NCBI RefSeq assembly: GCF_964213995.1
Contig: NC_135808.1
Location: forward strand, 50,406,001 to 50,470,000
Reading direction: 5' to 3'
Origin: Mustelus asterias
Taxonomy: Eukaryota
DNA length: 64,000 nt
Below the pieces are notes generated by a model. That model was given only the letters and a program-made list of their open reading frames with translations. It was not told where the DNA came from and did not search any database. This document shows positions 24,107 through 57,340 of this stretch, one piece after another (positions within the stretch are counted from its first letter, which is position 1; every line of letters starts with the position of its first letter). The position numbers and the translations under genes were made by a program.

Positions 24107-27100
24107 TCTTTGTGATGTGGAGGATTTGGGGGAGGTCAGATCGGGGTCAAAGATGAGGCCAATGTTGTAGAGAGTCTGGTTGAGCAGCAGACAGTGCTCA
24201 GGGGGAGGGATGGAGTTTGTATCGGGAGCTGAAGACCAATGGCTTTGAACTTCCCAATGTGTTTCCCAGTGAGCCTGGCTCCTCAGTCCTGACTGCTCTG
24301 AGCTGCTGTTCTTTTCACTGATTGGACAGTTATTGTTAGAGATTCAGACCACAGCACAAATCCCCAGTGTCAAAAATAACTGCAAAGACTGTCAGATCGG
24401 AAGATTGAAACGTAACCAACAGAGGAAGTGAAAGAAGGAGCTCAGAGCAGCTGGATGTTTGTTACTGAGACGGGAGAAAATGGTGAACCGTGTCCACTAC
24501 CTCCAATCTCCCAGCACAGAAGGCACAGTGGGATACAGTCAGGAGGGAGTTATCCTGGGAATCCTCAACAACAATTCCAGACTCCATGTAGTCTCTCAGT
24601 ACATGTCAAACATGGACAAGGAAACTAAATAGCGTAACCCCCTCAGCTGATGAATCAGTTCTCCTCCATGTTGAAAAGCACTTGGAGGAAGCACTGAGGG
24701 TGGCAAGGACACAGAGTGTACTCTGGGTGGGGACTTCAATGTCCATCACCAAGAGTTACTCGGTAGCACCACCACACACCGAGCTGGCCGGGTCCTAAAG
24801 GACATAGCTGCTAGACTGGGACTGCGGCAGGTGGGGAGGGAACCAACAAGAGGGAGAAACATACTCGACCTCATCCTCACCAACCTGCCTGCCGCAGATG
24901 CATCTGTCCATGACAGTATCGGTAGCAGTGACCACCGCACAGTCCTTGTGGAGATAAAATCCCATCTTCACATTGAGGGTACCCTCCATCGTGTTGTGTG
25001 GCACTGCCACCGTGCTAAATGGGATCGATTTCAAACAGATCTAGCAACTCAAAACTGGCATCCATGAGGCACTGTGGGCCATCAGCAGCAGCAGAATTGT
25101 ACTCAACCACAATCTGTAACCTCATGGCCCGGCATATCCCCCACTCTACCATTACCACCCAGCCTGGGGATCAACCCTGGTTCAATGAAGAGTGCAGGAG
25201 GGCCTGACAGGAGCAACAGCAGATGTACTGAAAAATGAGGTGTTAACCTGGTGAAGCTACAACACAGGACTGTGTGCCAAACAGCAGAAGCAGCAAGTGA
25301 TAGACAGAGCTAAACCATCCCACAAACAATGGATCAGATCTAAGCTCTGCAGTCCTGCCACATCCAGCCGTGAATGGTGGTGGACAATTAAACAACTCAC
25401 TGGAGGAGGAGGCTCCACAAATATCCCCATCCTTAATGATGGCGGAACCCAGCACATTAGTGGAAAAAATAAGGCTGATACTGCAAAGACTCTGGGTCCC
25501 GATAATAATCCAGCAACAGGCCTGAAGACTTGTGCTCCAGAACTTCCCTTGCTCCCAGCCAAGCTGTTCCAGTACAGCTACAACACTGGCATCTATCCGG
25601 AAATGTGGAAAATTGTACAGGTATGTCGTGTATACCAAAAAACAGGACAAATCTATTCTGGCCAATTCCCGCCCCATCAGTCTACTCTGCATCATCAGCA
25701 AAGAGATTGATAGAACTGTCGATGACACATTCTAACAGCTGTAATCAGCAATAACCTGCTCACTGACACTCAGTCTGGGTTCCACCAGGGTCACTCAGCT
25801 CCTGACCTCATTACAGCCTTGGTTCAAACATGGACAAAAGAGCTGAACCCCAGAGGTGAGGTGAGAGTGACTGCCCTTGACATCAAGGCAGCATTTGACC
25901 GAGTGTGGCATCAAGGAGCCCTCGCAAAACTGGAGTCAATGGGAATCAGGGGGAAACTCTCCACTGGTTGGAGTCACACCCAGCACAATGGTAGATGGTT
26001 GTGGTTCTAGGATTTCAATCTGAGATTGCCCCAGGACATCACTGCAGGAGTTCCTCAGGGTAGTGTCCTCAGCCCAACCATCTTCAGCTGCTTCATCAAT
26101 GACCTTCCCTCCATCATAAGGTCAGAAATGGGGATGTTCGCTGATGACTGCACAATGTTCAGCACCATTCACAACTCCTCAGATCCTGAAGCAGTCTATG
26201 TCCAAATGCAGCAAGATCTGGACAATATCCAGGCTTGGGGTGACAAGTGGAAAGTAACAATCACACCTCGCAAGTGCCAGGCAAGGACCATCTCCAACAA
26301 GAGAGAATTTTAACATCTCCCCTTGACATTAACTGTCATTACCATCGCTGAATTCCCCCACTATTAACATCCTGGTTGTTATGATTGACCAAAAACTGAA
26401 CAGGAAAAGCCATATAAATACTGTGGTTACAAGAGCAGGTGAGTAGTTAAGAATACTGTGGAGAGTAACTCACCTCATGGCTCCCCAAAGCCTGCCCACC
26501 ATCTACAGAGCACAAGTCAGGAGTGTGATGGAATACTCTCGACTTCCCAGGATGAGTGCAGCTCCAACAACACTCAAGAAGCTCAACATCATTCAGGACA
26601 AAGCAGCCTCGCTTGATTGATTCCCCTTCCACTAACATTCAATTCCTTCACCACTGTCGAACAGTGGCAGCCGTGTGTACCATCTACAAGATGCCCTGCA
26701 TGAACTCACCAAGGTTCCTGAGGCAGCACCTTCCAAACCCACAACCACTACTAACTGGAAAGATGCAGATCACTGGGAACACAACCACCCGGAGATTCCC
26801 CTCCAAGTCCCTCACCATCCTGACTTGGAAATATAGTGCCATTCCTTCACTGTCGCTGGGTCAAAATCCTGGAACTGCCTCCCTAACAGCACTGTGGTTG
26901 TGCCTACACCTCATGGACTGCAGCGGTTCAAGAAGGCAGCTCACCACCATCTCCTCAGGGCAATTAAGGATGGGCAATAAATGCTGGTGTAGCCAGTGAC
27001 ACCAACTTCCCGTGAATGAATAAATTATTAAAAAGTTCTACAATGTCTCATTCTGTGTGTTGAACTCTGGAACCTGTCGGCAGGATATTTGACTGCAGGA

Positions 27101-28891
27101 GCCTTCACCAGTGTCCAATTCTCACCCCAACCGAAATCCACACAGAACCTGAATTTATATAGCACCTTCGTGTACAACACAGCCCAAGATGTGTCACAGA
27201 GCGGCAGTAAGGAACGGGGGTGGGAGAGGGTGGGGGTGGAGGAACGTGAAGAGGAGAGATTGAAGACTTGGGTGAAAGGATGGAGCTTGATGGGGAGAGA
27301 GGCTTGGAGAGGGGGAGGGATTAGGGGTGGGAGGTCAGAGTGCAGGGCCTGGATGTCTGAAGGCTCTGCAGTCAATGGTGGGATGAAGGAAGCAGCGATG
27401 GGCAGGAGAGCAGAGTCAGAAGATGGAAGGTGAGGGAGGGAATGTGAGTCTGCAGAGGTAGGGAGGAGTGAGGCCATGGAGGGAATTGGAGGGCAGTGAG
27501 GTCAGGGGTAACAGGAGAGATTAAGTTAGTTAGGATTATATTCACTGAAGTTTGAGGATAAAGGGTAAACCTTTTAGAACTGAGGTGAGGAGAAATTTCT
27601 TCACCCAGAGGGTGGAGAATGTGTGGAATGCACTTTGACAGAATGGGGTTGAGGCCAAAACTTTGTCTGATTTCAAGAAGAAATTAGATATAGCTCTTGG
27701 GGCTAAAGGGATCAAGGGATATGAGAGGAAGGGGCCGGATCAGGATATTAAATTCGATGATCAGTCATGATCAAAATGAATGGTGGAGAAGGCTTGAAGG
27801 GCCGAATGGCCTACTCTTGCTTCAAGATTCTATATTCCTATGTCACTGAGGTCAAGGGTAACATGTCAGTGAGGTCAGGGGTGATGGGTCAGTGAGGTCA
27901 GAGGTAGTGTTGGAACGACACTTGGTGTGAGACAGGATCCAGACTCACTGCGTTTGGGACAAGTTCGGGTTTATGGAGTGTAGATGAAGGGAGCCGGGAG
28001 AGGATATCGGAATAATAGAGTTAGGAGGAGTGAGAAGCAGGGATAAGAGTCTCTGCGCTCATGGGGCTGATGTAGTGTAGAGACGGACAATGTTGTAGAG
28101 ATGGAAATAAGAGGCCTACGTGATGGATAGGATGTGGAGTTTGAAGCTCAGCTACTGGAAGCTACAGTGGGAAGGAGGCCCATGTCTACTGGTCCCTATT
28201 GGAGGCTCCAGTGGGGAGGAAGCCCATGTTTACTGGTCCCTATTGGAGGCTCCAGTGGGAAGGAGGCCCATGTTTACTGGTCCCTATTGGAGGGTCCAGT
28301 GGGACATGGACACCATGGTGGATGTGGAGCAGTTTCTTTATGTTATAAATGTGTGATTGTTCACTTTTGAGGAAGTCACAAAGTGGGTGAAGGGAACTTG
28401 TAGATGTGATATATAGGGAATTCCAAAAGGTATTTGATAAATTGCCACATCAAATCTTGCTACACAAGATACGAGCTGATGGTGTGTGGGTAACATATTA
28501 GCATTAAAAGAGGATTGGTTAGCGAACAGAGACCAGAGAGAGGGGTAAATGATTGTTTTGGGGTTGGGAAGTTGTAATTAGTGGAATTCTGGAACAATCA
28601 GTGCTGGGACCACAACTATTCACAATCCATATCAATGACTTGGATGAAGGGAGTGAATGGAGCTGATGTCCCAATGACAGCAGCATGGTCAGTGCAGGCT
28701 TAGAGGGTCGAAGGGCCTGTTCCTGTGCTGTAATTTTCTTTGTTTTTTGACACTAAGATAGTTGGGGAAAGTAAGTTATCAAGAGGAGATAGAGAGTCTG
28801 CAAACAGATGGAAACAAGGGAAGTGAGTGGCTAAACATTTGGAATATAACTGGGTAAATGTGAATGTGTCCACTTTGGCAGGAAGAATAGA
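24107..28891 (+). repeat. Inverted segmental duplicate (arm B) upstream of the V gene; contains the LINE relic (about 24500-27020) and a ~3-copy version of the 44-bp VNTR (about 28150-28305)
   Basis: Reverse complement of 1-4957. Shared ORF translations appear on opposite strands, e.g. 4114..4308 (+) equals 24746..24940 (-). Confidence 0.93.
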
Positions 28892-29608
28892 ACAGCAGTA
28901 AACTATTGAAATGGAGAGAGATTGCACAACTCGGTGCTACAGAGGGATCTGGCTGTCCTGGGACATGAATCACAACAAGTTAGTCTGCAGCTACAGCAAG
29001 TGATTAGGAAGACAAATGGAATATTGGTGTTTATTACAAGGAGAATGGAATATAAAAATAGGGAAGTTTTACTGCAGCTGTACAGTGTCTCGGTGAGACC
29101 ACATCTGGAATACTGTACATTTTGGTCTCCTTATTTGAAAAAGGATATAATTGTGTTAGAAGCAGTTCAGAGAAGATTCACTCGACACATTCCAGGGGTG
29201 AGGGGTTATCTTATGAAGAAAAGTTGGACAGGTTGGGCCTGAACCCATTGGAGTTTAGAAGAATGAGAGGTGATCTTATTGAAACATATCAGATTGTGAG
29301 GGGACTGACAGAGTGGATACCAGGAGGGTGGTGCCTCTTCTGGGGCAGAGTGAGATGAGTGGACAGACGGATAGAAGTGCTGGAGAGAAAGTGATGGAGA
29401 AGGAGAGCTGAATTGAGGAAGGGAGAGGGAGAGAATGACAAGAGAGAAAGAATGAGTGAAGGAGAGGGCAAAGAAGGAGAATAAGACAGGAACAACAAGA
29501 GAGAGAGACCGAGAGAGGGGGATCAGAGAGAGGGGGAACAGAGAAGGGGGAATAGAGAGAGCGGGAGCAGAGACTGAGGGACAGAGACTGAGGGAGGGAG
29601 AGAGAAGA

Positions 29609-29705
29609 AGAGGAAGTGAAAGGTGCTGACGTGGTTTCTCTGGGTCAGACCATTTACAGACTGAGGAACAGGCAGTGAGACTCTGACAGGCTGCAGCTTT
29701 ATAAA
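29609..29705 (+). promoter_or_regulatory. Putative V kappa promoter: ETS-IRF composite element, CRE/UPRE-like site, degenerate octamer, TATA box
   Basis: GGAAGTGAAA 29612-29621, TGACGTGG 29627-29634, ATTTACAG 29652-29659 and TTTATAAA 29698-29705. The TATA box is about 60 bp upstream of the ATG. Confidence 0.7.
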
Positions 29706-29765
29706 GCAGAGCCCAGTGAAGGGAGAGTTTATCAGTAACCAGGCACAGGGACACGACCACACACC

Positions 29766-29814
29766 ATGATTTCAGCCATCCAGCTGCTCTGGCCTCTGGC
29801 ATTCTGCATCGCAG
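29766..29814 (+). CDS. IGKV: Ig kappa-type light chain leader exon (MISAIQLLWPLAFCIA-G)
   Basis: CACCATG Kozak context, hydrophobic signal peptide, and a phase-1 GT donor at 29815 that splices in frame to 30001. Confidence 0.92.
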
Positions 29815-30000
29815 GTACAAATCTCTCTCCTTCCACCTTGAATATTTTCCTGCTCTCCATTTCAATCCAATTCTCCTGACTTGTGATTGAAGGGAAAATG
29901 CTGAAAGGAGAGGAACAGTCAGTGTCTCCAACAATATGTCATTGTACAGCGTCTTTCTGTGACAGTTCTTACTTCACTCTGTTTCTCTATTACCCCTCAG

Positions 30001-30298
30001 GTATCAGTGGAGACATCATCATGACCCAGTCTCCCCCGGTGCTGTCAGTGAGCCTGGGCCAGACCGCCACCATCACCTGCACGGCCAGTCAATCTGTTAG
30101 CAGTTACGTGAGTTGGTATCAACAGCGAGAAGGACAGAAACCGGCTCTGCTGATCTATGATGCATCAAGTCGATTCACAGGAATATCCGACCGATTCACC
30201 GGCAGTGGATCTGGGACACAATACACCCTGACAATCAGCAATGTACAGAATGAGGATGTCGCTGATTATTACTGTCAGTACGGTTACAGCTCCTCCTA
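30001..30298 (+). CDS. IGKV: Ig kappa-type V segment (germline, unrearranged, open)
   Basis: Pyrimidine tract and AG at 29999-30000. [27 protein letters not shown]...WYQQ...LLIY...GSGSGT..DVADYYC, closely resembling the nurse shark NS4 kappa type. Confidence 0.97.
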
Positions 30299-30326
30299 CA
30301 CAGTGATACAGAGCCTTACAAAAACC
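30299..30326 (+). other. V recombination signal sequence, 12-bp spacer
   Basis: CACAGTG-ATACAGAGCCTT-ACAAAAACC. Heptamer and nonamer are perfect consensus; V-12/J-23 is the kappa configuration. Confidence 0.97.
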
Positions 30327-30329
30327 CCA

Positions 30330-31548
30330 ACACACACAGCACCACCTCCTGTACTGACACATCCCACAGTTTTATATAATATATAATAATGGACACACAG
30401 TCCCACCTCCTGGACTGACACATCCCACAGTTTTATATAATATATAATAATGGACACACAGTCCCACCTCCTGTACTGACACATCCCACAGTGTTATATA
30501 ATATATAATAATGGACACACAGTCCCACCTCCTGTACTGACACATCCCACAGTTTAATATAATATATAATAATGGACACACAGTCCCACCTCCTGTACTG
30601 ACACATCCCACAGTTTTATATAATATATAATAATGGACACACAGTCCCACCTCCTGTACTGACACATCCCACAGTGTTATATAATATATAATAATGGACA
30701 CACAGTCCCACCTCCTGTACTGACACATCCCACAGTTTTATATAATATATAATAATGAACACACAGTCCCACCTCCTGTACTGACACATCCCACAGTTTT
30801 ATATAATATATAATAATGGACACACAGTCCCACCTCCTGTACTGACACATCCCACAGTTTCATATAATATATAATAATGGACACACAGTCCCACCTCCTG
30901 TACTGACACATCCCACAGTTTCATATAATATATAATAATGGACACACAGTCCCACCTCCTGTACTGACACATCCCACAGTGTTATATAATATATAATAAT
31001 GGACACACAGTCCCACCTCCTGTACTGACACATCCCACAGTTTCATATAATATATAATAATGGACACACAGCACCACCTCCTGTACTGACACATCCCACA
31101 GTTTTATATAATATATAATAATGAACACACAGTCCCACCTCCTGTACTGACACATCCCACAGTTTTATATAATATATAATAATGGACACACAGTCCCACC
31201 TCCTGTACTGACACATCCCACAGTTTTATATAATATATAATAATGGACACACAGTCCCACCTCCTGTACTGACACATCCCACAGTTTTATATAATATATA
31301 ATAATGGACACACAGCACCACCTCCTGTACTGACACATCCCACAGTTTTATATAATATATAATAATGGACACACAGTCCCACCTCCTGTACTGACACATC
31401 CCACAGTTTTATATAATATATAATAATGGACACACAGTCCCACCTCCTGTACTGACACATCCCACAGTTTTATATAATATATAATAATGGACACACAGTC
31501 CCACCTCCTGTACTGACACATCCCACAGTTTTATATAATATATAATAA
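30330..31548 (+). repeat. 61 bp minisatellite, about 20 copies, in the V-J interval
   Basis: Unit GGACACACAGTCCCACCTCCTGTACTGACACATCCCACAGTTTTATATAATATATAATAAT (starts 30391, 30452, ...), highly homogeneous. Confidence 0.97.
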
Positions 31549-31725
31549 AGACAAGAAAGGAAACTGGACAAATTATTTGCACTGTCCACTACACACTCCA
31601 GTCCCTGTGGTGTCCACCGCTCGCTGAAGGCCTCGAGTTTCCCGCTTACTCTCCATGTCCACATATGAAGAGCAGCTGAAAGATTCATCATCTCAAATTA
31701 GAATTCTCAACTCTCCCGACAAAAC

Positions 31726-31995
31726 NNNNNNNNNNNNNNNNNNNNNNNNNNNNNNNNNNNNNNNNNNNNNNNNNNNNNNNNNNNNNNNNNNNNNNNNNNN
31801 NNNNNNNNNNNNNNNNNNNNNNNNNNNNNNNNNNNNNNNNNNNNNNNNNNNNNNNNNNNNNNNNNNNNNNNNNNNNNNNNNNNNNNNNNNNNNNNNNNNN
31901 NNNNNNNNNNNNNNNNNNNNNNNNNNNNNNNNNNNNNNNNNNNNNNNNNNNNNNNNNNNNNNNNNNNNNNNNNNNNNNNNNNNNNNNNNNNNNNN
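31726..31995. other. Assembly gap (270 N)
   Basis: Run of N between the V-side repeat and the J segment. Confidence 1.
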
Positions 31996-32013
31996 AGTGA
32001 GGCAGAGAGCAGA

Positions 32014-32052
32014 GGTTTTTGTACAGCTCCTGCACTGGAAGCTGTCAGTGTG
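32014..32052 (-). other. J recombination signal sequence, 23-bp spacer
   Basis: GGTTTTTGT (32014-32022), 23 bp, CAGTGTG (32046-32052). The heptamer reads CACACTG, one mismatch, with the essential CAC intact. Confidence 0.95.
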
Positions 32053-32087
32053 CCTTACGTTCGGTAAAGGAACCAAACTCAGACTGA
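32053..32087 (+). CDS. IGKJ: Ig kappa-type J segment (LTFGKGTKLRL)
   Basis: FGxG motif and a phase-1 GTAAGT donor at 32088 that splices in frame to the C exon. Confidence 0.95.
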
Positions 32088-32914
32088 GTAAGTAAAGCCC
32101 AATCCTCCGTTATTAACCCTTTCAATGCTGAAACTTTCTCAAACACAAATGCTGAATAGTTGAAGGTGTTGGTGAGGAAGCTGCAGTCAATGAAATGGTT
32201 GATTGAAGAACATTGTGTGGAACAGGGAGCCCAGCTGTATTTCTTTCCTTCCATTCCCCCCTTTAAGCAGCAAGATATAAGTAAGCAGCTTTTACCCACC
32301 GTGTGGAGGAGATCTGGACGTTTGCAGACTGTGCTCACATTCCTGCAGCATGGAGTGAAATCACTCTCTAGGCTCCTGTCAGTCTCAGTGTGACACACAC
32401 AGGCAGAGTTTGATGTGAAGTCGGACTCCCTGTCACACTCTCTGATATAACTGATCACAGCACCAGCACAGTGAGACACCGAGGTGCCACCTCCCCCAGC
32501 TTTCACTCTGCTCTCTCCACTCCCTGCTTATCTCTTGCTAAAGTTCTGATGACAAACAGCTACAGCAGGGCCCACAATCCAGTGGCTTCAGTGTTCCAGG
32601 CTTTTGGAGAGACTCTCAGTTACTTTCTCTCTGGGACGATTTCAGTCCGATATTTATCCCGGATCCAACATCACTGAAAATGCTGATTGTTCTCATTGCT
32701 GTGAGTGGGATCTTGCTGTGTACATGTTGTGACCAGTCCTCAGACAAGGTCCCTCGTTTGTTAACTTCCTGAACTCGATCCCAATTTTGTTTTGCTCCTG
32801 GGTGAGGAGTAATCAGCTGGAATCCCGCACTCGATTGGTCTCAACAGGGTTCATTTAAAATGGATCCCTTCACCCGTGGAAACCTTACACAGTCCACATA
32901 GTCCTTTATTAGCC

Positions 32915-33135
32915 TTTGAATCTCTACAGTGCAGAAGGAGGCTATTCAGTCCATCGAATCTGTACCAACTCTCTGAAAGAGCTTCTTACCCAGGCTCCCC
33001 ACCCTATCCCTGTAACCCTGCGCATTTACCATTGCTAATCCACCTAAAGGACACACTAGGGGTAATTTAGCATGGCCAATCCATCTGACCTGCAGATCTT
33101 TGGACTGTGGGAGGAAACTGGACCATCCGGAGGAA
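32915..33135 (-). mobile_element. HE1-like SINE 3' half in the J-C intron
   Basis: Reverse complement of TTTCCTCCCACAGTCCAAAGATCTGCAGG...ATTGGCCATGCTAAATT. Confidence 0.8.
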
Positions 33136-35040: not shown

Positions 35041-36133
35041 CAACAAAGAACAAAGAACAGTACAGCACAGGAAACAGGCCCTTCGGCCCTCCAAGCCTGT
35101 GCCGCTCCTTGGTCCAACTCGACCAATCGTTTGTATCCCTCCATTCCCAGGCTGCTCATGTGACTATCCAGGTAAGTCTTAAACGATGTCAGCGTGCCTG
35201 CCTCCACCACCCTACTTGGCAGCGCATTCCAGCCCCCACCACCCTCTGTGTAAAAAACCTCCCTCTGATGTCTGAGTTATACTTCGCCCCTCTCAGCCTG
35301 AGCCCGTGACCCCTCGTGATCGTCACCTCCGACCTGGGAAAAAGCTTCCCACTGTTCACCCTATCTATACCCTTCATAATCTTGTACACCTCTATTAGAT
35401 CTCCCCTCATTCTCCGTCTTTCCAAGGAGAACAACCCCAGTCTACCCAATCTCTCCTCATAGCTAAGACCCTCCATACCAGGCAACATCCTGGTAAACCT
35501 TCTCTGCACTCTCTCTAACGCCTCCACATCCTTCTGGTAGTGCGGCGACCAGAACTGGACGCAGTACTCCAAATGTGGCCTAACCAGCGTTCTATACAGC
35601 TGCATCATCGGACTCCAGCTTTTATACTCTATACCCCGTCCTATAAAGGCAAGCATACCATATGCCTTCTTCACCACCTTCTCCACCTGTGTTGCCACCT
35701 TCAAGGATTTGTGGACTTGCACACCTAGGTCCCTCTGTGTTTCTATACTCCTGATGACTCTGCCATTTATTGTATAACTCCTCCCTACATTATTTCTTCC
35801 AAAATGCATCACTTCGCATTTATCCGGATTAAACTCCATCTGCCACCTCTCCGCCCAATTTTCCAGCCTATTTATATCCTGCTGTATTGCCCGACAATGC
35901 TCTTCGCTATCTGCAATTCCAGCCATCTTCGTGTCATCCGCAAACTTGCTGATTACACCAGTTACACCTTCTTCCAAATCATTTATATATATCAGAAATA
36001 GCAGAGGTCCCAGTACAGAGCCCTGCGGAACACCACTGGTCACAGACCTCCAGCCGGGAAAAGACCCTTCGACCACTACCCTCTGTCTCCTATGGCTAAG
36101 CCAGTTCTCCACCCATCTAGCCACTTCTCCTTG
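35041..36133 (-). mobile_element. 5'-truncated CR1 LINE (RT and tail) in the J-C intron
   Basis: GVPQGSVLGP..YINDL..KFADDTK in ORF 35189-36178, with a (TTCTTTG)n tail at 35041. Confidence 0.92.
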
Positions 36134-36267
36134 AGACGTGTATTGTCTCCAGACAGGACAGCGAGTGAGATTTTGCACATCCAGGCAGGTTGTGGGGGTT
36201 ACAGATAGTGTGACATGAACCCAAGTTCCCGGTTGAGGCCGTCCCCATGCGTGCGGAACCTAGCTAT

Positions 36268-36590
36268 CATTTTGGCAAATCCCAGTTTCGTGAAATTGGC
36301 CTTTTCCCAATTTAAAATGTTTACTCTCAATCGCTCTTTCCCCTTTTCCATAACAACTCTAAATCTAACTGTATTATGATCACTATTACCCAAATGCTCT
36401 CCCACTGATACACCTTCCACAAGCCGAGATTCATTCTATAAAACTGCCCAAAACTGCCCCTTCTCTTGTTGGGATTGTTCCGTGCTGGTTAAAAAAATTC
36501 CCCCGGAATGGATTTGCAGAATTGTGTAACGTTGAAACATTGACACTGATTTGATCCCAGTCAATATTCGGGAAGTTGAAAGCCTGAAAT
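36268..36590 (-). mobile_element. Old CR1 endonuclease relic adjoining the C exon acceptor (shared with the second cluster)
   Basis: FNFPNIDW and VSVGEHLGNSDHN motifs. The same relic starts at about 63035 on +. Confidence 0.8.
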
Positions 36591-36624
36591 GGCAGTGATT
36601 AAAATTCCTTCTCTTCTCTTTCAG

Positions 36625-36953
36625 CCCGTGAGAATTCACAACCCACGCTGACCCTGCTGCCCCCCTCCCCGGAGGAGGTCAAGACCAAGGGCACTGCCAC
36701 CCTGGTGTGCCTTGCCGATCACTTCTATCCCGACCAGGTGGAGGTGAAATGGAAGAAGGATGGTGCAGCCATTTCCAACGGGGTTCAGACCAGCAACTAC
36801 CTGCGAGCTTCAGACAACACCTACAGCGTCAGCAGCCTGCTGACCCTCTCTGGCTCCGACTGGGAGTCCAACGCCCGCTTCTCCTGTGCCCTCACCCACG
36901 TGAGCCTCTCCTCTCCCCTCAGCAAGAGCGTCAGGAGATCAGAATGTGCCTAG
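36625..36953 (+). CDS. IGKC: Ig kappa-type constant exon (copy 1)
   Basis: TTCTCTTTCAG acceptor. RENSQPTLTLLPPSPEEVKTKGTATLVCLADHFYP..W..TYSVSSLLTL..FSCALTH..SECA*: C1-set Ig domain with a penultimate interchain Cys. Confidence 0.97.
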
Positions 36954-37227
36954 AGTGTTAGAGACAGTCCACAGAGGAGACACAACATGGAATAGAACAG
37001 GGGTGAGCTGGGAGGGCAAAGGTCATTGTCAGCACTGAGTTACAACTCTCTTCCTTCTCGGGACTGAGTCTGAGACACTTCTGAGGGTCAGAGGTTAAAG
37101 CACGTTATTGGGATAGTGTAGAGGGAGCTTTACTCTATATCTAACCCCGTGCTGTTCCTGTCCTGACAGTGTCGACTCGTGATAACAAGTATAACCTCTG
37201 GAAGATGCTGAAGAGTGTCAGCTGTAC

Positions 37228-37458
37228 AATAAAAATGTGACCCTGTGAAGTGTCTGCTTCAGTAAACCAGACCTCCTTCCTGCTCACCCTGCAGTTACAA
37301 TTGAAGCTTTAGTCACTGTTTAAAGGGACAGGATTCTCATGTTATTGAGAAAATCTCCACAAGTGTTTTAATAAACCTCCATTCTCCCTGTGAATTTCTC
37401 CAGCTTCCTCTGGCTGGGCTGTTTTTTCTGTCAATGTCAATGTGTAAAAGGTAATAAA
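37228..37458 (+). terminator. Candidate polyadenylation signals of the kappa transcript
   Basis: AATAAA at about 37228, 37370 and 37453. The last is followed by a GT-rich tract, and the latter two are retained in the inverted copy. Confidence 0.6.
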
Positions 37459-38939
37459 CATTAAGAATATTCAGTTTCTGTCTGGTGAGTGCTTTGGAAA
37501 TGTCCCACCTCCCCATCAGCTGATTGGCTGCATTTCACCAAATGATTGTCCGGATTGGCTGCTTGGCCTGTCAATCAAAGACACATCTGCAGAAGATTGG
37601 ATTCAAAGCCAATGATCATTCATTTGAAAATGATCAGTTTGATCTGGAATCTCTTGAGTGACAAGATTGAAAACAGAGAAGAAACTGAAAGTTGCTGGGA
37701 TTAAACCATCACAATCACAATTCTCCACCCCATATTCACCACCTGCCTCTTGACCTTAACCATCTCACGTGGTCTCACTGCTCCCATAGTTTCAATCAGA
37801 GATAAGACCATCTCTGATTACTTCCTTGTATCACTCCCCAGCCACATCCCCCTTCCACACCCCCAACCCTACCCCCTTCTGTATCCATCCCTGCAAAAAC
37901 CTATTCCCCAATTCACTTACAACGCACTTTCCAAATTCCAACTATCTTAAATTTCATTTTACCAGAAGCCAGTTGATTCTCAGACTAGCTGAGCAGAGAG
38001 ACAACCCCTTTGTTTCTCCACACCCAACTCTTCCAGCTGTGTCCATTGATCATTGAGCCAATGATCATCACTTGTCTTTATCAATCTAATTGGATGAACA
38101 ATATAAATATCAAAGGTTGCAATTGCTAGCGCATTGACAAGGGCTGAGTTGGTGAAAATGCCAGTTTGGAAACAGGGAGGGATGGGAGCACAGTAAGAAT
38201 GTTACAGGACTGTTAATCCTGAGGGTTTTTCTGGGAGGTATGGGTTCAAATCCCATTATGGCACTGGGAGGAATTTGAATTCTTTCCATTTCAGGATACT
38301 GGTGTTCGACAAGGCAATATGCTGTGGTCCTCAAACTGTTGAGCCCGCTTTCTTTAAAGAGAACACATTTAAATGAACCAAAACCATCATAAATCCTGCA
38401 TTGACACAAAGCAAAACATGTCTTTTTCCTTTATAACATCCCAACATAATTTGTAATTTCTAGGAACAGACATGTTTATCTGTAAAGCAGTTTGATAATT
38501 AGTGACTTGTGTTAAGTCTTTGTATCTTTGAGATCTCCCTTCTCTTGAACATTGTGTTTCTGTGAACGAAATCTATTCTTGGCCTTTTTCAGCTGCATTA
38601 TCTTGGAGAGGACATTATCCCACAGAGATCACTGAGTGCTTTTCACAACTCTTTTACTCTTCTTGGATTCTCAAACTAAAGTGTAACATTTCGTATTCTT
38701 TCCCACCAAGAATCTGATGAACCCTGCGCTGCTCAAAAACCGACCCAGAAGATTGGCATATGAAGCATCACTAAATCTTACATAGAAACATGGAAACTAG
38801 GAGGAGGAGGGGGCCATTCGGCCCTTCGAGCCTGCTCCACCATTCATTATGATCATGGCTGATCATCCAACTCAACAGCCTTCCCCTGTGTATCCTTTGA
38901 TTCCCCCTCCAACTCAAATGCTTTATCTAACTGAACCAG

Positions 38940-42789: not shown

Positions 42790-43205
42790 TTAGAACAAAG
42801 AACAAAAGAAAATTACAGCACAGGAACAGACTCTTCGGCCCTCCAAGCCTGCACCAACCATGCTGCCGTCTGAACTAAAACCCCCTCCCCTTCTTGGGAC
42901 CATATCCCTCTATTCCCATTCTATTCATGTATTTGTCAAGACCCTTAAAAGTCACTATCGTATCTGCTTCCACTCCATCCCCCAGTAGCGAGTTCCAGGC
43001 ACCCACCACCCTCTGTTTAAAAAAGTTGCCTCGAACATCTCCTTTAAACCTTGCCCCTTGCACCTTAAACCTATGCCCCCTAGTAATTGACACTTCCACC
43101 TTGGGAAAAAGCTTCTGACTAATCATTCTGCCCATGCCCCTCATAATCTTGTAGACTTCTATCAGGTCGCCCTCAACCTCTGTCGTTCCAATGAGAACAA
43201 ACCAC
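42790..43205 (-). mobile_element. CR1 3' fragment
   Basis: TRGHRFKV..FFKQRVVGAWN, with tail at about 42792. Confidence 0.85.
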
Positions 43206-43549
43206 GGTCCTCCAATCCAAGCTCGAAGTTCATCTGCCTTACCCGTTACACATCTCGCATTGAAACAAATGCTCTTCAGTTCACCAGACCCTCTTTGATC
43301 AGCAACCCCACCCTGCCCCCTCTTTCACTGAGTCTTACTGGCCCGACTCTCTCATTCCCCTTCGGTCAATTCACCTTTGCTTCAGTACCCCCTCCCCCCG
43401 CCCACCCCCCCTCCCGCGTGGCACTCGCAAACCTACTGGCCAGAATATTTGCACCCCTCCAGTTTAAACGCAACCCGTCCCACCTGTCCTGGAAGAGATC
43501 CCAATGGTCCAGATATCTGAAACTCTCCCTCCTGCATCAGCTGTTCAGC

Positions 43550-45278
43550 TGCGTGGAGCCTGAAGAGATAGGAGAGGCGCTAAATGAATATTTTTCATCA
43601 GTATTCACGCAGGAAAAAGACAATGTTGTCGAGGAGAATACTGAGATACAGGCTGTTGGACGAGACGGGATTGAGGTTAATAAGGAGGGGGTGTTAGCAA
43701 TTCTGGAAAGTGTGAAAATAGATGAGTCCCCTGCGCCAGATGGGATTTATCCCAGGATTCTCTGGGAGACTAGGGAAGAGATTGCAGAGCCTTTGGCTTT
43801 GATCTTTATGTCGTCATTGTCTACAGGAATAGTGCCAGAAGACTGGAGGATAGCAAATGTTGTCCCCTTGTTCAAGAAGGGGAGTAGAGACAATCCTGGT
43901 AATTATAGATCAGTGAGCCTTACTTCTGTTGTGGGCAAAGTTTTGGAAAGGATTATAAGAGATAGGATTTATAATCATCTAGAAAGGAACAATTTGATTA
44001 GGGATAGTCAGCACGGTTTTGTGAAGGGTAGGTCGTGCCTCACAAACCTTATTGAGTTCTTTGAGAAGGTGACCAAAGAGGTGGATGAGGGCAAAGCAGT
44101 TGATGTGGTGTATATGGATTTCAGTAAAGCATTTGATAAGGTTCCCCACGGTAAGCTATTGCAGAAAATACGGAGGCATGGGATTGAGGGTGATTTAGCG
44201 GTTTGGATCAGGAATTGGCGAGCTGTAAGAAGACAGAGGGTGGTGGTTGATGGAAAATGTTCATCCTGGAGTTCAGTTACTAGTGGTGTACCGCAAGGAT
44301 CTGTTTTGGGGCCACTGCTGTTTGTCATTTTTATAAATGACCTGGATGAGGGCGTAGAAGGATGGGTTAGTAAATTTGTGGACGACACTAAAGTTGGTGG
44401 AGTTGTGGACAGTGCGGAAGGTTGTTGCAGGTTACAGAGGGACATCGATAAGCTGCAGTGCTGGGCTGAGAGGTGGCAAATAGAGTTCAATGCAGAAAAG
44501 TGTGAGGTGATTCACTTTGAAAGGAGTAACAGGGTTACAGAGTACTGGGCTAATGGTAAGATACTTGGTAGTGTGGATGAACAGAGAGATCTGGGTGTCC
44601 ATGTGCATAGATCCCTGAAAGTTGGCACCCAGGTTGATAGGGTTGTTAAGAAGGCGTACGGAGTGTTAGCTTTTATTGGTAGAGGGATTGAGTTTCAGAG
44701 CCAGGAGGTCATGTTGCAGCTGTACAAAACTCTGGTGCGGCCGCACTTGGTGTATTGCGTACAGTTCTGGTCACCGCATTATAGGAAGGATGTGGAAGCA
44801 TTGGAAAGGGTGCAGAGGAGATTTACGAGGATGTTGCCTGGTATGGTGGGAAGGTCTTATGAGGAAAGGCTGAGGGACTTGAGGTTGTTCTCGTTAGAGA
44901 GAAGAAGGTTAAGAGTTGACTTAATAGAGGCATACAAGATGATCAGAGGATTAGATAGGGTGGATGGTGAGAGCCTTTTTCCCCGGATGGTGATGGCTAG
45001 CATGAGGGGACATAGCTTTAAATTGAGGGGTGATAGATACAGGACAGATGTCAGAGGTAGATTCTTTACTCAGAGAGTAGTAAGGGCATGGAATGCCCTG
45101 CCTGCAGCAGTAGTGGACTTGCCAACATTAAGGGCATTTAAATGGTCATTGGATAAACATATGGATGATATTGGAATAGTGTAGGTCAGATGGGCTTTAG
45201 ATTGGTTTCATTGGTCGGCGCAACATCGAGGGCCGAAGGGCCTGTACTGCGCTGTAATGTTCTATGTTCTATGTTCTA
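43550..45278 (+). mobile_element. 5'-truncated CR1 LINE with an open RT region
   Basis: ORF 43295-45184 is RT-like from EEIGEALNEYFSSVF onward (FINDL..KFVDDTK), followed by a (TGTTCTA)n tail. Confidence 0.92.
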
Positions 45279-48129: not shown

Positions 48130-49126
48130 ATGATATGGCGGGACAAGGACAGTGGGGCCCGGGGTCCCTGATACCTGAATATATAATTAAGAAGGACAAA
48201 CTCATTAAACAGATGATAAAAGGGGGATGGGATTTAGACCACCCGCTAGACCAATAATGAAAGTGGTTGGAAAAAGAAAAGAAAGACAGAACAAAGAAAA
48301 TTGGGGTTCTCTAAGTTCACCAATTGGCTGGATTAATTGGACAGGTCGCAGTCTCGAGTAAGAAATGGGCTGACGACAAAGCAAAAATTAAAATGTTGGA
48401 AACACGCAATAGCAAATGAGAGAAGCGGAACCAACTTTTAGAGGACCCTGTCGGGGGATTCTTGCCTCCCTATGGGCCGGCCGTACAACCCACGGCACCA
48501 GTGGGAGACCCTGATGAGGAAGAGGTCCATGATCTCGCTCCCATAACTCGGACCGGGACGTTACAGCATCCCACTGCCCGATATAAAACCTTTACCCCAG
48601 GTGAATGATGACAGATTTTGGCACCCCTGGGAAGGCTCCAGCCAAGGATTAAACAACAAAGGGGTGAAGGAGCCTCTGAATTTGGAGAGCGACTCTTTAG
48701 AGTATACCAAGAACGTTCGGGAATACCCGAACAGATAGAGCCTTTTTACAAGCATTTAAAGATGGGCTATTGCCAGCTCACCAGAAAATCCTTAAAATGG
48801 GAGTTCTCAATACCCAGGCTTATGATGAATTAGTAGAATGGGCATCTGGAATTAGAGATGGACCAGATGAGAAACCATACCCACGAATAAAACAGGAAAC
48901 AGTTAGTGCAAACAGTGGGGGGGCTAAACCCAAGGGTGCGTGCTATAATTGTGGGAAACCGGGTCACTTTGCCAGAGGCTGTAGAGCTCCAAAGGGGGGC
49001 GGTAGAAAAGCCCCAACCTGCCTGTTTTGTAATAAGGTTGGCCACACTGAGGCCACCTGTTGGAGCAAGCACGGCAGACCGAGTCAACTGCTTCGCCCTC
49101 CCCTCATTGACGAGGGAGGGAATTGA
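48130..49126 (+). pseudogene. gag: ERV gag (disrupted) with two CCHC zinc knuckles
   Basis: CYNCGKPGHFARGC and CLFCNKVGHTEATC, a PPY-type motif upstream, and several stops and frameshifts. Confidence 0.8.
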
Positions 49127-52100
49127 CGGGAGGCAGCCCCCACAAGCCTGGGCACAAAAGAGGGTAGAATCTACGTGTCTGCACTAGTAGGGGGAAGGCA
49201 ATGTGAAATGCTGGTGAACACAGGAGCCTCCATATCTATCACTGATCTACCCTTGCCCACCACCAATAAAATGATCTATATAAGGGGTGTTAACGGACAG
49301 AAGACCCCTGCCTACTTAAGTGAAACCACCCTAGTAGAAATTAATAACCTGTATATACCTATGCGATTTTACGTATGTAGAAATAATGAAGGAACTATTA
49401 TGGGAAATGACCTAATGAAGGAATACAAAGTCTGAATAGATTGTGGGAAAGGTGAATTGATTTGGCCCCGCCCCGATGGGAGAAAAGACAGGGTAGGAAC
49501 ATATGTAAACCATTTAGGGACCATCCATGCAGCATCTGCAACGGGATGCGACTGGCATTTAGACGGTTCTGGATTTGGCGCCATCTGCGCCTCCGTCCCC
49601 GGTGTGTGGGCGGAAACGAAACTGGATACTGGATTCGTCAAAATTGACCCTATAATAGTGGTAGGGCCAGAACATAAACCACATCGGCAAAACCCGATTA
49701 AGCCCAAAGCCAAAAAGGCAGTGGAGGAAATTGCGACGGGATTGGTAAAGAGAGGGATCCTACGGGAAACCAGTCGTACCAGCAACTCCCCCACCTGGCC
49801 CGGTGTCTAAACCGGACGGGAGCTATAGATTAACCATTGATTATACAGCTTTAAATAAAGTGACCCCCAAGCTACACCCCATCGTGGCCTCGCCCCTCCA
49901 CCATTTTAAACGGGTTGTCACCATCCCATGGAATCTTCACGGGATTGGATATCGCCAACGGTTTGTCGTCCATTCCCCTGGACCCTAATTCGCAAGATAA
50001 ATTTGCATTTACCGTGGGCGATAAGCAGTGCACATGGACTAGGCTCCCGCAAGGCTTCCATAACAGCCCGGCTATATTTCACCGGGTAATGAGTAAGATA
50101 TTAGAACAGGTGGAAGTCCCAAAAGGGAGCACAATTCTGCAGTATGTAGATGATATCTTAATAGCCTCCGAAACTAGAGCAGAACATCAGACGGTGCTAT
50201 ACTCAGTCTTGAAACACTTAGAAGAACAGGGACTAAAGGCGAGCCCCAGGAAAGCCCAAATAGGGAAAGAGCGGGTGTTATATTTGGGACACCTGATATC
50301 CCAGGGGACCAAAGAAATGCCATTGGACAGGAAAACGGCCATTCAGCAAATGCCAAGACCAGTAACCGTCCGAGGGGTCAGGAAGGTTTTGGGACTGTTT
50401 AACTACAGTTGCAACTTTATACTGGAATTTGCCAGGCGAGCCGAACCAATACAAAGGCTAGTAAAAGGGGGGAAACCCGCTCTTGAGGTTATAGAGTGGG
50501 GATCAGAACAGGAAGATGCATCTCGTAAACTAAAAGCAGAACTAATGACAGCTCCGGGACTTGGACTGCCCAACGCTAATAAAGATTTTCACATCTATTG
50601 TAATAATGAGGGGGGTTTTATTCGGCAGTAGTTACACAGGTCCATGGGGACAAGCAGCGGCCAGTGGGTTATTATTCCACAGCGGAGGGCCCCGCAGTAG
50701 CCGGGTTACCCAGATGTATAGCCGCACTGGATTGAGCGGCATGGGCAGTAAGGGTCAGTGAGCCCATCATAATGACGGGGAATATTGTTTTGCACACCAA
50801 ACATACCTTAGTGGAAATGCTGAACACAGGAAAATTGCGGTCTGTCTCAAATGTGAGAAGGGTAAAGTGGGAGGCAGTGCTTCTCCCACCCACTAAGTCC
50901 ATCACCATTGTACGAGACATGGGAACGAACCCCGCAGAAGGAATGTTAGGTGAAGGGGACCCACACAACTGTGGGGACGTAGATGAGGAGGTAGACGAAG
51001 GTAGAATAAAAGATGTGTCCCTGGAGGCACCAGATATGGTCCTATTTGTGGATGGATCACGGAAATATGTAGATGGGTCACCACGAACAGGATGGGCGGC
51101 AGTGAATGCGGATTTACAAATTGTTCAAGCAGGAAGAATAGAGGGAGGCATGTCAGCACAAGTAGCGGAACTGGTAGCCTTGACTCAGGCTTTTACAGAG
51201 GCTGCGGGGAAAAGGGTCAACATTCACACCGATAGTAGATATGCGTTTGGAGTTATACATGACTATATGACAGTTTGGGGGAGAAGGGGATTTATCACAA
51301 TGGGAGGCACTCCAATTAAACATGGCCAGATAATAACAACCTTATTGGGAGCCAGCGAGCTCCCATCGGAAGCCGCAGTATTGAAGGTAAAAGCACACCA
51401 CAAGGAACCAGATAAGCAAAGTCCTGAGTGGTATATGTTTAAGGGAAACCAGGCAGCCGACAGAGCGGCACGAGCTGCCTTGGAAACAGGGGAAGTGCAG
51501 GCCTTGCCAGCTGCCTCGAGTAAAATCGAAACCCCGATAGACATCTCACAGCTCCATGCTGATACCCCTGAAGAAGAACGTCTGAGGGGGAAAACTCAAA
51601 AGGAGCTACACCTGATGGAGGGGGGTGGATGGAGATTAAATGATAAAGTCCGAGCCCCAGAATGTATCCAGCATACTCTGATGCGGTTACATCATGGGCT
51701 GTCGCATGTGGGGAGGGATGCCACGGTGACCAGTGTGGGGAAGGAATGGTGGTGGAAAGGAATGGGAGGGGACATTGCCCGATATTGTCACCGGTGCATA
51801 ACCTGTGCACAGTATAACCCTGGAAGACCCGTAAAAATCAAGATGGGGCACCAGCCTCGCCCTCAGGGTCCCTGGGAACACCTGCAAGTTGACTTTACAG
51901 GACCTCTCCCGCAGTCACACGGGAGAACCTGCTGCTTGGTAATTATTGACCAATTCACCAGATGGGTAGAAGCATTCCCGACGAAAAATTGTACTGCCAC
52001 TACAGTGGCCAGAATACTAGCTGAGGAAGTTATCCCAAGATGGGGGGTGCCTTTGCAAATAGACTCCGTTCAAGGCACGCACTTTACGGGGAAGGTTGTA

Positions 52101-52718
52101 AAAACCACATGTCAACTGATGGGGATAAGACAGATATTTCACATACCCTACCACCCTCAAAGCTCGGGGATGGTGGAACGTATGAATAGGACACTTACGA
52201 TCTCCTAGGCAAAGGCCATGCAGGAATCAGGAAAGAGATGGACAGAAGTATTACCCGCCATATTAATGGAACTCAGAGCCACCACAAATCGGACCACTGG
52301 GCTGACACCATATGAGCTAATGCCCGGAAGGGCTATGCAACTGCCCGAGTCCATCATTACCGGAGGGACAGATGGAGGCCCATTACGGGACAAGATTAGG
52401 CGATATGTATTAGAATTAAGCTCCCAATTAAAAGATATGCGGAAAAAAGTACGGGACAAACAAATAGCGGTCGATGAGAACAATGAACTAGAACAGACTC
52501 CGGAGATACCCCCGGCAGGCAGCAAGGTTACGGTAAAAACCTTACCCGAAAAACCTGGATTCGCCCCCGAAGGGAAAAGCCCCTATGAGTTTATCATTCG
52601 TGGAGACACCTGTGCCTGTATAGATATGCAAGGCAGAGGTGTCTGGAAACACTGGGCCCAGTTGAAAGAATACACTGGCACCAATCGGAAAACATGTAAT
52701 GGACAACAAAACAGTTAA
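49127..52718 (+). pseudogene. pol: ERV pro-pol (protease, RT, RNase H, integrase), disrupted
   Basis: LVNTGA (DTG to NTG); KPDGSYRLTIDY, RLPQGFHNSP, QYVDD; FVDGS, AQVAELVAL, HTDSRY; HHCC, QVDFTG, YHPQSSGMVERMN. Confidence 0.93.
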
Positions 52719-53944: not shown

Positions 53945-55460
53945 TTCCTGACACAATATGTGGATAGGCCGACAAGAGGTGAGGCCACATTGGATTTGGT
54001 ACTGGGAAATGAACCAGGCCAAGTGTTAGATTTGGTTGTGGGAGAGCACTTTGGAGATAGTGACCAACAATTCGGTGTCTTTTGTTATTGCAATGGAGAG
54101 GGATAGGGCCATATGGCAGGGCAAGGTTTACAATTGGGGGAGAGGTAATTATGATGCGATTAGGCAAGAATTAGGGGGCATAAGATGGGAACAGAAACTG
54201 TCAGGGAAAGGCACTAATGAAAAGTGGAACTTTTTGAAGGAACAAATACTGGGTGTCCTTGATAGGTATGTCCCTGTCAGGCAGGGAGGAAATGGCCGAG
54301 TGATGTCATATACATGGATTTTAGTAAGGCGTTTGATAAGGTCCCCCATGGTCGGCTTATGATGAAAGTAAGGAGGTGTGGGATAGAGGGAAAGTTGGCC
54401 GATTGGATAGGTAACTGGCTATCTGATCGAAGACAGAGGGTGGTGGTGGATGGAAAATTTTCGGACTGGAGGCAGGTTGCTAGCGGAGTGCCGAAGGGAT
54501 CAGTGCTTGGCCCTCTGCTCTTTGCGATTTTTATTAATGACTTAGAGGAGGGGGCTGAAGGGTGGATCAGTAAATTTGCTGATGACACCAAGATTGGTGG
54601 AGTAGTGGATGAGGTGGAGGGCTGTTGTAGGCTGCAAAGAGACGTAGATAGGATGCAAAGCTGGGCTGAAAAATGGCAAATGGAGTTTAACCCTGATAAA
54701 TGTGAGGTGATTCATTTTTCTAGGACTAATTTAAATGTGGATTACAGGGTCAAAGGTAGGGTTCTGAAGAATGTGGAGGAACAGAGAGATCTTGGGGTCC
54801 ATATCCACAGATCTCTAAAGGTTGCCACTCAAGTGGATAGAGCTGTGAAGAAGGCCTATAGTGTGTTAGCTTTTATTAACAGGGGGTTGGAGTTTAAGAG
54901 CCGTGGGGTTATGCTGCAACTGTACAGGACCTTGGTGAGACCACATTTGGAATATTGTGTGCAGTTCTGGTCACCTCACTATAAGAAGGATGTGGAGACA
55001 CTGGAAAGAGTGCAAAGGAGATTTACCAGGATGCTGCCTGGTTTGGAGGGTAGGTCTTATGAGGAAAGGTTGAGGGAGCTCGGGCTGTTCTCTCTGGAGC
55101 GGAGGAGGCTGAGCGGAGACTTAATAGAGGTTTGTAAAATGATGAAGGGGATAGATAGAGTGAACGTTCAAAGACTATTTCCTCGGGTGGATGGAGCTAT
55201 TACAAGGGGGCATAACTATAGGGTTCATGGTGGGAGATATAGGAAGGATATCAGAGGTAGGTTCTTTACGCAGAGAGTGGTTGGGGTGTGGAATGGACTG
55301 CCTGCAGTGACAGTGGAGTCAGACACTTTAGGAACATTTAAGCGGTTATTGGATAGGCACATGGAGCACACCAGGATGATGGGGAGTGGGATAGCTTGAT
55401 CTTGGTTTCAGATAAAGCTCGGCACAACATTGTGGGCCAAAGGGCCTGTTCTGTGCTGTA
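53945..55460 (+). mobile_element. CR1 LINE fragment with an internal deletion near 54300, inserted in the ERV interior
   Basis: Endonuclease C-terminal region is joined directly to YMDFSKAFDKV. Open RT 54314-55399, then a TGTTCTA tail. Confidence 0.9.
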
Positions 55461-56469: not shown

Positions 56470-57340
56470 AAGGTATTGCCCACCATACTAATGAGATTAA
56501 GGGTTGCCACAAACCAAACAACCGGATTAACCCCTTATGAGCTAATGACAGGACAGGCGATGCAATTACTAGAAAGCACCATAACAGGTGGGACTGATGT
56601 AGGTCCACTAAAAGATAAAATCAGGAGATATGTTTTGGAACTAAGCACCCAACTAAAAGGGATGCGTAAATTGGTAAAAGACAATTAGGAGATAAGAGAC
56701 ACAGAGAGAGAGCTTGAAATGCTCCCTGACATCCCAACAGCGGGACGTCCGAGTGAAAACAGTACCTGACAAATCAGGGTTTGTACTAAAATGGGATGGG
56801 CCGTATGAAGTTATAATTAGTGAAGATACCTGTGCCTGCATAGACATAAGGGGGAAAGGTCATTAAACTCAGTTGAAAGAATATGCTGAAACTAATTGGG
56901 AAATTATGTGATATCCTCCCATTGCAGGAATGTACAGACAATAACCAACCTCCAAGCAAGCTGAACTGGTGCGCGGTGTTTCGCGCGGGCGGTAGCCTTT
57001 GGACCGTTGTATAACGGTCGCGCGGGTTATTAGTAAGTGATAAGATGTTTTTCATGTTACTTCTCACGACCCTGGCCCTGTTAGCTATAGTGGGAAAGTA
57101 TAGATGGAATTATGAGAATTTGGGGATGGGACACAGTGAACATCTCTGTGACGATGACTCTGTCTATTGTATGAACACCTTTGTGTATATGTCTTATCTC
57201 TATGCATCACAATCGAATTTGAGCAAGTGCTGGGTCTGTTCACACATTCCCACGCACGGAGGAAAGGGAGGAATTCCTTTATTCCCTATCCCTTTATCAG
57301 CTCCAGATACACAATATCGGGACCTCTCAGGCCAGTTCTG
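56470..57340 (+). pseudogene. env: Second ERV integrase C-terminus followed by an env N-terminal fragment
   Basis: VLPTILMRLR..TTGLTPYELMTG..GPLKDKIRRYVLELSTQLK and KWDGPYEV, then a hydrophobic signal segment and SNLSKCWVCSHIP (gamma-type SU CWxC motif). Confidence 0.75.

What the first reader, a model, noticed from the sequence alone, without database searches (positions are those of the whole stretch)
30327..31548. Heptamer-rich 61-bp array starting directly after the V nonamer
Seen: about 20 homogeneous units begin within ~4 bp of the 12-RSS nonamer. Most units have two CACAGT motifs, with exactly 23 bp between the two 7-mers. Three units carry a perfect CACAGTG (30487, 30670, 30975). 23 bp after the second heptamer lies ACACAGTCC (6/9 to ACAAAAACC but lacking the A-tract). 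Inference: roughly 40 cryptic RSS-like sites, all in V-RSS orientation, that could act as RAG decoys or a loading platform, or simply lengthen the V-J distance. The array is excised on V-J joining, so any effect is on rearrangement only.
Basis: partly seen in the sequence, partly recalled or inferred. Interest (0 to 1): 0.72.

Follow-up and report, generated by a model that had tools for sequence, protein, structure and literature searches.

The report
Minisatellite inside shark antibody kappa genes
An old 61-base piece of the spacer between the V and J segments of shark kappa antibody genes has been copied about twenty times in a row; its likeness to gene-cutting signals is weak and of the wrong type, so it is most likely a passenger repeat rather than a control element.

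Summary
The array is real: 20 x 61 bp, 97% alike, 30332-31548, five bases after the perfect 12-RSS of an intact shark Ig kappa (NS4/type III) V gene. Read-through gene models from six shark species carry at least its start after the RSS; one catshark model reads one unit and then the same downstream sequence. In one public run (X5) the repeat is entered only from V-kappa and left only to that downstream sequence, at about 6-10 units per cluster, so it is a kappa-cluster minisatellite, not a dispersed satellite. As decoys the sites are poor: none of 40 passes as a 12-type RSS (the type J needs); 17 pass a crude filter only as 23-type, at near-chance odds (0.15); no tested 12/23-position nonamer is among 1000 top-ranked functional nonamers; the motifs are lost in several homologues. 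Best reading: near-neutral expansion spread among clusters (0.7). Not found in five literature searches. A tuning role (accessibility or V-inactivating decoy) is not excluded.

The parts
29766..29814 (+). Leader exon of the kappa V gene; 186-bp intron follows
   Evidence: the same intron length is given for nurse shark NS4 (PMC2193156)
30001..30298 (+). V-kappa exon, open frame, both cysteines and the tryptophan present
   Evidence: Pfam V-set E 1.4e-17; 89% identical to catshark model P0020
30299..30326 (+). Consensus 12-RSS of V (13/13 on the filter)
30332..31548 (+). Minisatellite, 20 x 61 bp, 9 unit variants; per unit two CACAG motifs, a central CTGTACTG motif and a 21-bp A/T-only tract with TATA-like words
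31549..31725 (+). Unique spacer DNA after the array; the same sequence follows the unit in run X5 (30 of 30 loose letters) and in gene models P0020 and P0013
31726..31995 (.). Assembly gap, 270 N
32014..32052 (-). 23-RSS of J: consensus nonamer, heptamer with one mismatch
32053..32087 (+). J-kappa segment (LTFGKGTKLRL), splice donor follows
36625..36953 (+). C-kappa exon, open to its stop
   Evidence: 84-91% identical to shark kappa chains among the top hits

Best explanation
A locus-specific minisatellite (variable tandem repeat) in the V-J spacer of shark Ig kappa clusters. An old single-copy 61-bp segment just behind the V 12-RSS was duplicated in tandem, probably by slippage or unequal exchange at short ACA-rich borders (inferred), then expanded. 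It was spread or homogenised among the many kappa clusters by cluster duplication and conversion (inferred). RAG still pairs the perfect V 12-RSS with the J 23-RSS and deletes the array. The CACAG words pre-date the array: the first is the end of a CA run, and the 6/9 'nonamer' is the next unit's first motif. They give at most very low off-target cutting. Shown: anatomy, homology of the unit to single-copy spacer, looped tandem state tied to V-kappa in public runs, weak RSS scores. Inferred: mechanism of expansion and near-neutrality.
For: (1) 9 of 28 parsed shark kappa gene models (31 returned) read through the RSS into the unit, p<=0.003 each, from six named species. (2) P0020 reads RSS, one unit, then the post-array sequence (34/53 residues), with a frame change that fits a 2-base loss at the second motif. 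(3) Nurse shark NS4 spacers are 502-524 bp (PMC2193156); the window's 1754 minus 19 units is 595 including 270 N. (4) Run X5: 4 contigs laid, all 4 shown: V entry depth 19.4, unit 149.4, junction loop 125, exit 15.2; in 144, out 140, so about 6-10 units per cluster and no other entry or exit. X1: junction 4040 against V 229-291 (about 14-18x). (5) 0 of 40 sites pass as 12-type; passing as 23-type has conditional chance 0.15. (6) With a perfect nonamer, 36 of 40 heptamer+2 words recombine 16- to 212-fold below the real V RSS word and one more about 30- to 60-fold below (PMC9723617 supplement). (7) The four main 12/23-position nonamers are absent from the 1000 top-ranked nonamers of PMC12711392 Table S2. 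(8) Peptide-inferred loss of motif 1 in 3 of 9 and of motif 2 in 2 of the 4 models that clearly reach it.
Against: Two CACAGT per unit is rare by chance. 17 of 40 sites pass the crude 'CAC + 9 of 13' filter as 23-type, against 0.30 per kb outside the array, and only length 61 of 21 tested unit lengths gives such a site. Three sites have a near-optimal heptamer word (1.4-fold below the real one). The real J heptamer word scores as low (0.069%) as the commonest array word (0.073%), so a weak heptamer does not exclude use. PMC12711392 reports that A/T-rich, nucleosome-repelling nonamers drive cryptic sites, and one array 9-mer is in its top 1000, though at an 11 spacer from a poor CAC. The array is shared by clusters and, by contig depth, by two or three organisms; persistence could mean selection. 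Contig depth is not a true copy number, and gene-model peptides may hide introns.
Confidence: 0.7

Rival explanations
1. Accessibility amplifier: the repeated A/T tract (TATA-like words facing J, nucleosome-repelling) or the conserved central motif opens chromatin or drives germline transcription beside the V RSS, so unit number tunes how often a cluster rearranges.
For: 36 TATAWAW words (consensus recalled) on the + strand in 1.2 kb against 0.4 per kb elsewhere; a 21-bp A/T-only run per unit. PMC12711392 links nucleosome repulsion to RSS use. The central motif looks better kept than the heptamer-like words in peptides and recurs at the same distance from the nonamer in a fish light-chain V locus, L001 (7/8, p about 0.017, post hoc).
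Against: TATA-like words are more numerous on the - strand (49), as expected of any A/T tract. Single-unit and about 500-bp spacers exist in catshark and nurse shark, whose NS4 loci supply about 90% of light-chain cDNA (PMC2435157). No expression data were laid.
Confidence: 0.13
2. Decoy 23-type RSSs: motif 2 plus the next unit's first motif pairs with the cluster's own V 12-RSS. Same orientation gives inversion or hybrid joints that spoil the V, lowering success per cluster and so helping exclusion among dozens of kappa clusters.
For: 17 of 40 sites pass the crude filter of PMC11153149 as 23-type, 3 with a perfect heptamer. The site exists only in the tandem state and only at period 61 among 21 lengths. 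Precedent: mouse gamma-satellite cryptic 23-RSSs recombine (PMC2193808).
Against: The pseudo-nonamer lacks the purine-A/T-purine core at positions 4-6 and is not in the top 1000. Conditional chance is 0.15. It cannot pair with J under the 12/23 rule. The minus-strand sites have 0/9 nonamers at 23.
Confidence: 0.07
3. Pure spacer: only length matters. Moving J from about 0.5 to 1-2 kb away changes synapsis or germline joining.
For: The spacer is about three times the nurse shark length; shark segments normally lie about 400-500 bp apart.
Against: Both distances are far above the minimum for RAG synapsis (own knowledge, not tested here); no usage data.
Confidence: 0.05
4. Assembly artefact or an inserted genome-wide satellite.
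For: A 270-N gap lies 177 bp downstream; 113 of 1278 150-mers in the region are not unique. No whole genome was available to search.
Against: Tandem-junction contigs at high depth in X1 and X5, balanced entry and exit in X5; no copy elsewhere in 64 kb (best score 35, null 28-40); unit homologous to single-copy spacer in other sharks.
Confidence: 0.05

Closest known systems
Nurse shark NS4 / horn shark type III (kappa) V-J-C miniloci (PMC2193156; PMC2435157)
   Same: Cluster layout, 186-bp leader intron, 12-RSS on V facing 23-RSS on J, C exon 86% identical to nurse shark P0011 and horn shark kappa P0017.
   Different: Published spacer is 502-524 bp with no repeat mentioned (0 hits for 'repeat' or 'repetitive' in the main text); here it carries a 1.2-kb array.
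Cryptic RSSs in mouse gamma-satellite (PMC2193808)
   Same: A tandem repeat whose unit holds heptamer-like CAC sites scored as 23-type; some recombine at low level.
   Different: Gamma-satellite is an abundant 234-bp satellite away from receptor loci with RIC scores near threshold; this is a 61-bp locus-bound minisatellite with no RIC score or assay.
Convergent cryptic CAC sites used during RAG scanning (PMC11153149)
   Same: All 40 motifs are convergent with the J RSS; very low-level joins to sites as simple as CAC are known.
   Different: Those are by-products at very low level; the paper finds strong kappa RSSs dominate. No amplified array is described in the passages seen.
Ordinary minisatellites (VNTRs) with interspersed unit variants (own knowledge)
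   Same: Head-to-tail 61-bp units, 97% alike, variants interspersed along the array, apparently different mean lengths between runs.
   Different: Sits against an RSS and is shared by a multigene family of clusters.

Membership tests
Shark Ig kappa (NS4/type III) cluster | V with 12-RSS, J with 23-RSS, one C exon | tested here: met
Shark Ig kappa (NS4/type III) cluster | C and V closest to shark kappa chains | tested here: met
   C 72-91% identical over 31 hits, all sharks, most named kappa-like; V 62-89%
Minisatellite (VNTR) | Head-to-tail units of 10-100 bp, high identity | tested here: met
Minisatellite (VNTR) | Copy number varies between alleles, loci or species | tested here: inconclusive
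   1 unit in P0020 (peptide-inferred), about 6-10 in X5, about 14-18 in X1, 20 here; contig depth is rough and alleles were not seen
Genome-wide satellite | Copies at many unrelated loci | tested here: not met
   one entry and one exit in X5; none elsewhere in the window; no whole genome held, so low-copy dispersed arrays are not excluded
Functional 12-RSS (partner for J) | CAC heptamer plus nonamer at 12 bp | tested here: not met
   nonamers 2/9 and 3-4/9; 0 of 40 pass the 9-of-13 filter
Cryptic 23-RSS | At most 4 mismatches over heptamer tail and nonamer (PMC11153149 filter) | tested here: met
   17 of 40 sites
Cryptic 23-RSS | Functional nonamer core, purine-A/T-purine at 4-6, or top-1000 rank (PMC12711392) | tested here: not met
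Cryptic 23-RSS | RIC score above threshold | not testable with these tools
   no RIC model was available
Cryptic 23-RSS | RAG cleavage or junctions at the heptamer | not testable with these tools
   no joints in the 451 bases laid, but these were contigs, which drop rare variants, and the one raw-read run gave 0 reads

The most novel reading that the evidence does not exclude
In one shark lineage a spacer segment beside the kappa V RSS has been amplified family-wide into a length-variable array that tunes how often each cluster rearranges, either by opening chromatin (A/T tracts, central motif) or by offering 23-type decoys that spoil the V. Unit number would then be a heritable dial for cluster choice and light-chain exclusion among dozens of miniloci.
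Probability: 0.15. Interest if true: 0.75.

Novelty: new variant of a known kind. Interest (0 to 1): 0.3.

Why it matters
How a shark B cell picks one of about 60-70 kappa miniloci (PMC2435157) is an open question. A length-variable array at the V RSS gives a natural allelic series to test whether spacer length, A/T content or cryptic sites affect cluster use. Even if neutral, it marks individual clusters, records conversion among them, and helps explain why these loci break in assemblies. If neutral it is a modest descriptive addition.

Tried and rejected
Whole-genome search: no genome held. Unit copies elsewhere in the window: none above null. Origin from the V RSS: no support (p 0.58). Origin from the J 23-RSS: 14 of 23 spacer bases match in register with the heptamer (binomial 5e-4, post hoc; local test p 0.017 uncorrected, 1 of 8 comparisons), but the nonamer side is 0/9; kept as a lead only. 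Structured DNA or RNA: z -0.54; no Rfam match in 29500-33000. Metagenome scan for the unit core: 0 hits; for the V RSS: 1 hit, L001, a fish-like light-chain V without the unit. Protein search for read-through models: none at 69-223 aa, 2 of 3 candidates at longer lengths, both already in hand. Raw-read run X21: 0 reads laid, no test. X8: junction bins 6300-6800 against V about 230, but neighbouring bins are low and only 82% of the run was read, so only suggestive. Earlier findings of this scan: none. PDB search only showed an Ig light-chain V. Recalled, not tested genome-wide: sharks carry abundant dispersed CA-rich minisatellite families.

Full report
Observation. There are 40 CACAG sites, two per unit, all on the + strand; 17 of 20 units have two CACAGT, and CACAGTG occurs at 30487, 30670 and 30975. 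The 6/9 nonamer-like word 23 bp after motif 2 is present in 17 of 20 units but is the next unit's motif 1. Two CACAGT in a 61-mer is rare: 1 of 2043 background tiles, 8 of 20000 shuffles. Nine unit variants are interspersed; the longest exact repeat is 181 bp. A 270-N gap (31726-31995) separates the array from J.

Context. The locus is a shark Ig kappa V-J-C cluster: leader 29766-29814, 186-bp intron, open V exon, consensus 12-RSS, J 23-RSS, J, and C at 36625-36953. The C exon found 31 proteins, all from sharks, 72-91% identical, most named kappa-like. Nurse shark NS4 genes have a 186-bp leader intron and a 502-524-bp V-J spacer (PMC2193156, passages). Here the spacer is 1754 bp; without 19 extra units it is 595, of which 270 are N.

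Origin of the unit. Some database gene models read through the RSS. Of 31 proteins, 28 could be parsed; 9 match the RSS plus the start or more of unit 1 (p<=0.003 each against shuffles), from Heterodontus francisci, Cetorhinus maximus, Scyliorhinus torazame, Chiloscyllium punctatum, Hemiscyllium ocellatum and Stegostoma tigrinum, four orders by my own knowledge. P0020 reads RSS, one unit and then the post-array sequence (34 of 53 residues), changing frame as a 2-base loss at motif 2 would require. From the peptides I infer that motif 1 is lost in 3 of 9 models (P0008, P0023, P0027) and motif 2 in 2 of the 4 that clearly reach it (P0018, P0020). These are inferences from translations; hidden introns cannot be ruled out. 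So the unit is old single-copy spacer and the tandem state is derived.

Distribution. 20 of 23 listed runs, from 12 studies, hold part of 29700-31720. I laid 4 of the 23 on 29990-30440. In X5 4 contigs were laid and all 4 shown: V plus RSS (depth 19.4), unit (149.4), unit-unit junction (125) and an exit (15.2) whose 30 loose letters equal the window's post-array sequence. Inflow 144 and outflow 140 balance, giving about 6-10 units per cluster, with no other entry or exit. In X1 (31 laid, 8 shown) a junction contig has depth 4040 against 229-291 for V. X8 (41 laid, 8 shown) has junction bins of 6300-6800 but low neighbours, so it is only suggestive. X21 gave 0 reads. X1 may be the window's own species. 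Contig depth is a rough measure and low-copy dispersed arrays would be missed. No copy lies elsewhere in the window. The repeat is thus a family-wide kappa minisatellite, not a one-off or a dispersed satellite, as far as one clean run shows.

Are the sites RSSs? J has a 23-RSS, so a decoy for J must be 12-type. At 12 bp the nonamers match 2/9 (motif 1) and 3-4/9 (motif 2). With the crude filter of PMC11153149 (passages; CAC plus 9 of 13), 0 of 40 pass as 12-type and 17 of 40 as 23-type; 19 sites pass outside the array, 0.30 per kb, two of them the real RSSs. Holding both motifs fixed and shuffling the rest, 15% of 20000 units give such a site; against this, only length 61 of 21 lengths tried does. 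In SARP-seq data with a consensus nonamer (PMC9723617, abstract, one section, supplement rows) the real V word scores 1.14%; the array words score 0.83 (3 sites), 0.073 (13), 0.039 (1), 0.020 (3), 0.016 (17) and 0.005 (3). Summed with a perfect nonamer, 39 of the 40 sites would be 3.3 times the real RSS; scaled by that paper's two cryptic nonamers, 0.94 or 0.04 times, and the array's 12-position nonamers match the consensus worse than either. The real J heptamer word scores only 0.069%, so the nonamer is what discriminates. Of 11 array 9-mers looked up in the top-1000 table of PMC12711392 (abstract, two of three parts of Results, supplement search), one is present, at an 11 spacer from a poor CAC; the four main 12/23-position nonamers are absent. 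That paper also reports that A/T-rich nonamers favour cryptic cutting, so weak activity at motif 2 is possible. All these data are from mammalian RAG.

Mechanism. Most likely (0.7): tandem duplication of the spacer segment, expansion by slippage or unequal exchange, spread among clusters by duplication and conversion (all inferred), and deletion of the array at V-J joining with at most trace off-target cuts. Rivals: accessibility amplifier (0.13; 36 TATA-like words on +, 49 on -, 21-bp A/T run per unit; central motif at the same distance from the nonamer in fish locus L001, p about 0.017 post hoc); 23-type decoys pairing with the cluster's own V (0.07); length effect alone (0.05); artefact or satellite (0.05).

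Comparison and novelty. Closest known: NS4/type III kappa clusters; cryptic RSSs in mouse gamma-satellite, two of three of which recombined in plasmids (PMC2193808, passages and section 19); convergent CAC sites in RAG scanning. NS4 numbers about 60-70 loci and gives about 90% of light-chain cDNA (PMC2435157, passages). Five searches (listings only, open-licence library) showed no description of this array; subscription papers were not searchable, and supplements of the nurse shark papers were not looked at. Earlier scan findings: none.

Verdict. Real, locus-specific, apparently undescribed, but best read as a minisatellite expansion of old spacer DNA; the decoy reading is weak. New variant of a known kind; interest 0.3.

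Noticed in passing
window 61557-63354 (-), C exon frame 62668-63018: A second C-kappa exon in inverted orientation, 95% identical over 1.8 kb to 36268-38047; its V and J would lie beyond the window end.
   Followed up: partly
window 32046-32052: The J heptamer has one non-consensus base; read-through peptides of other sharks (L/ISV or LSL before W) suggest it is common to shark kappa J, and it scores low in SARP-seq.
   Followed up: partly
window 32023-32045 against the array unit: The J 23-spacer matches the unit's inter-motif 23-mer at 14 of 23 bases in register; nonamer side 0/9. The J spacer also has 7/8 inverted ends (seen in the sequence).
   Followed up: partly
L001 1-130 (-): A fish-like light-chain V from a metagenome contig has a near-identical 12-RSS and a 7/8 match to the unit's central motif at the same distance from the nonamer.
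   Followed up: partly
window 29652-29659: No consensus octamer near the V promoter; only a 6/8 word was found upstream of the TATA-like box. Could bear on expression of this cluster.
   Followed up: no
window 48701-52208 and 57015-57341: LTR retroelement or endogenous retrovirus-like pieces in separate frames: zinc knuckle, reverse transcriptase, RNase H, integrase; a downstream frame with a CWVC word and no Pfam match may be env-like (recalled motif).
   Followed up: partly
window 1-4957 and 24107-28891: Large inverted duplication, 83-93% identical in pieces, including a 44-bp tandem repeat with different copy numbers (7.5 and 3.5).
   Followed up: no
window 43091-45184, 35189-36259, 54266-55399: LINE-type reverse transcriptase frames; the longest is 697 residues, one lies in the J-C intron.
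   Followed up: partly
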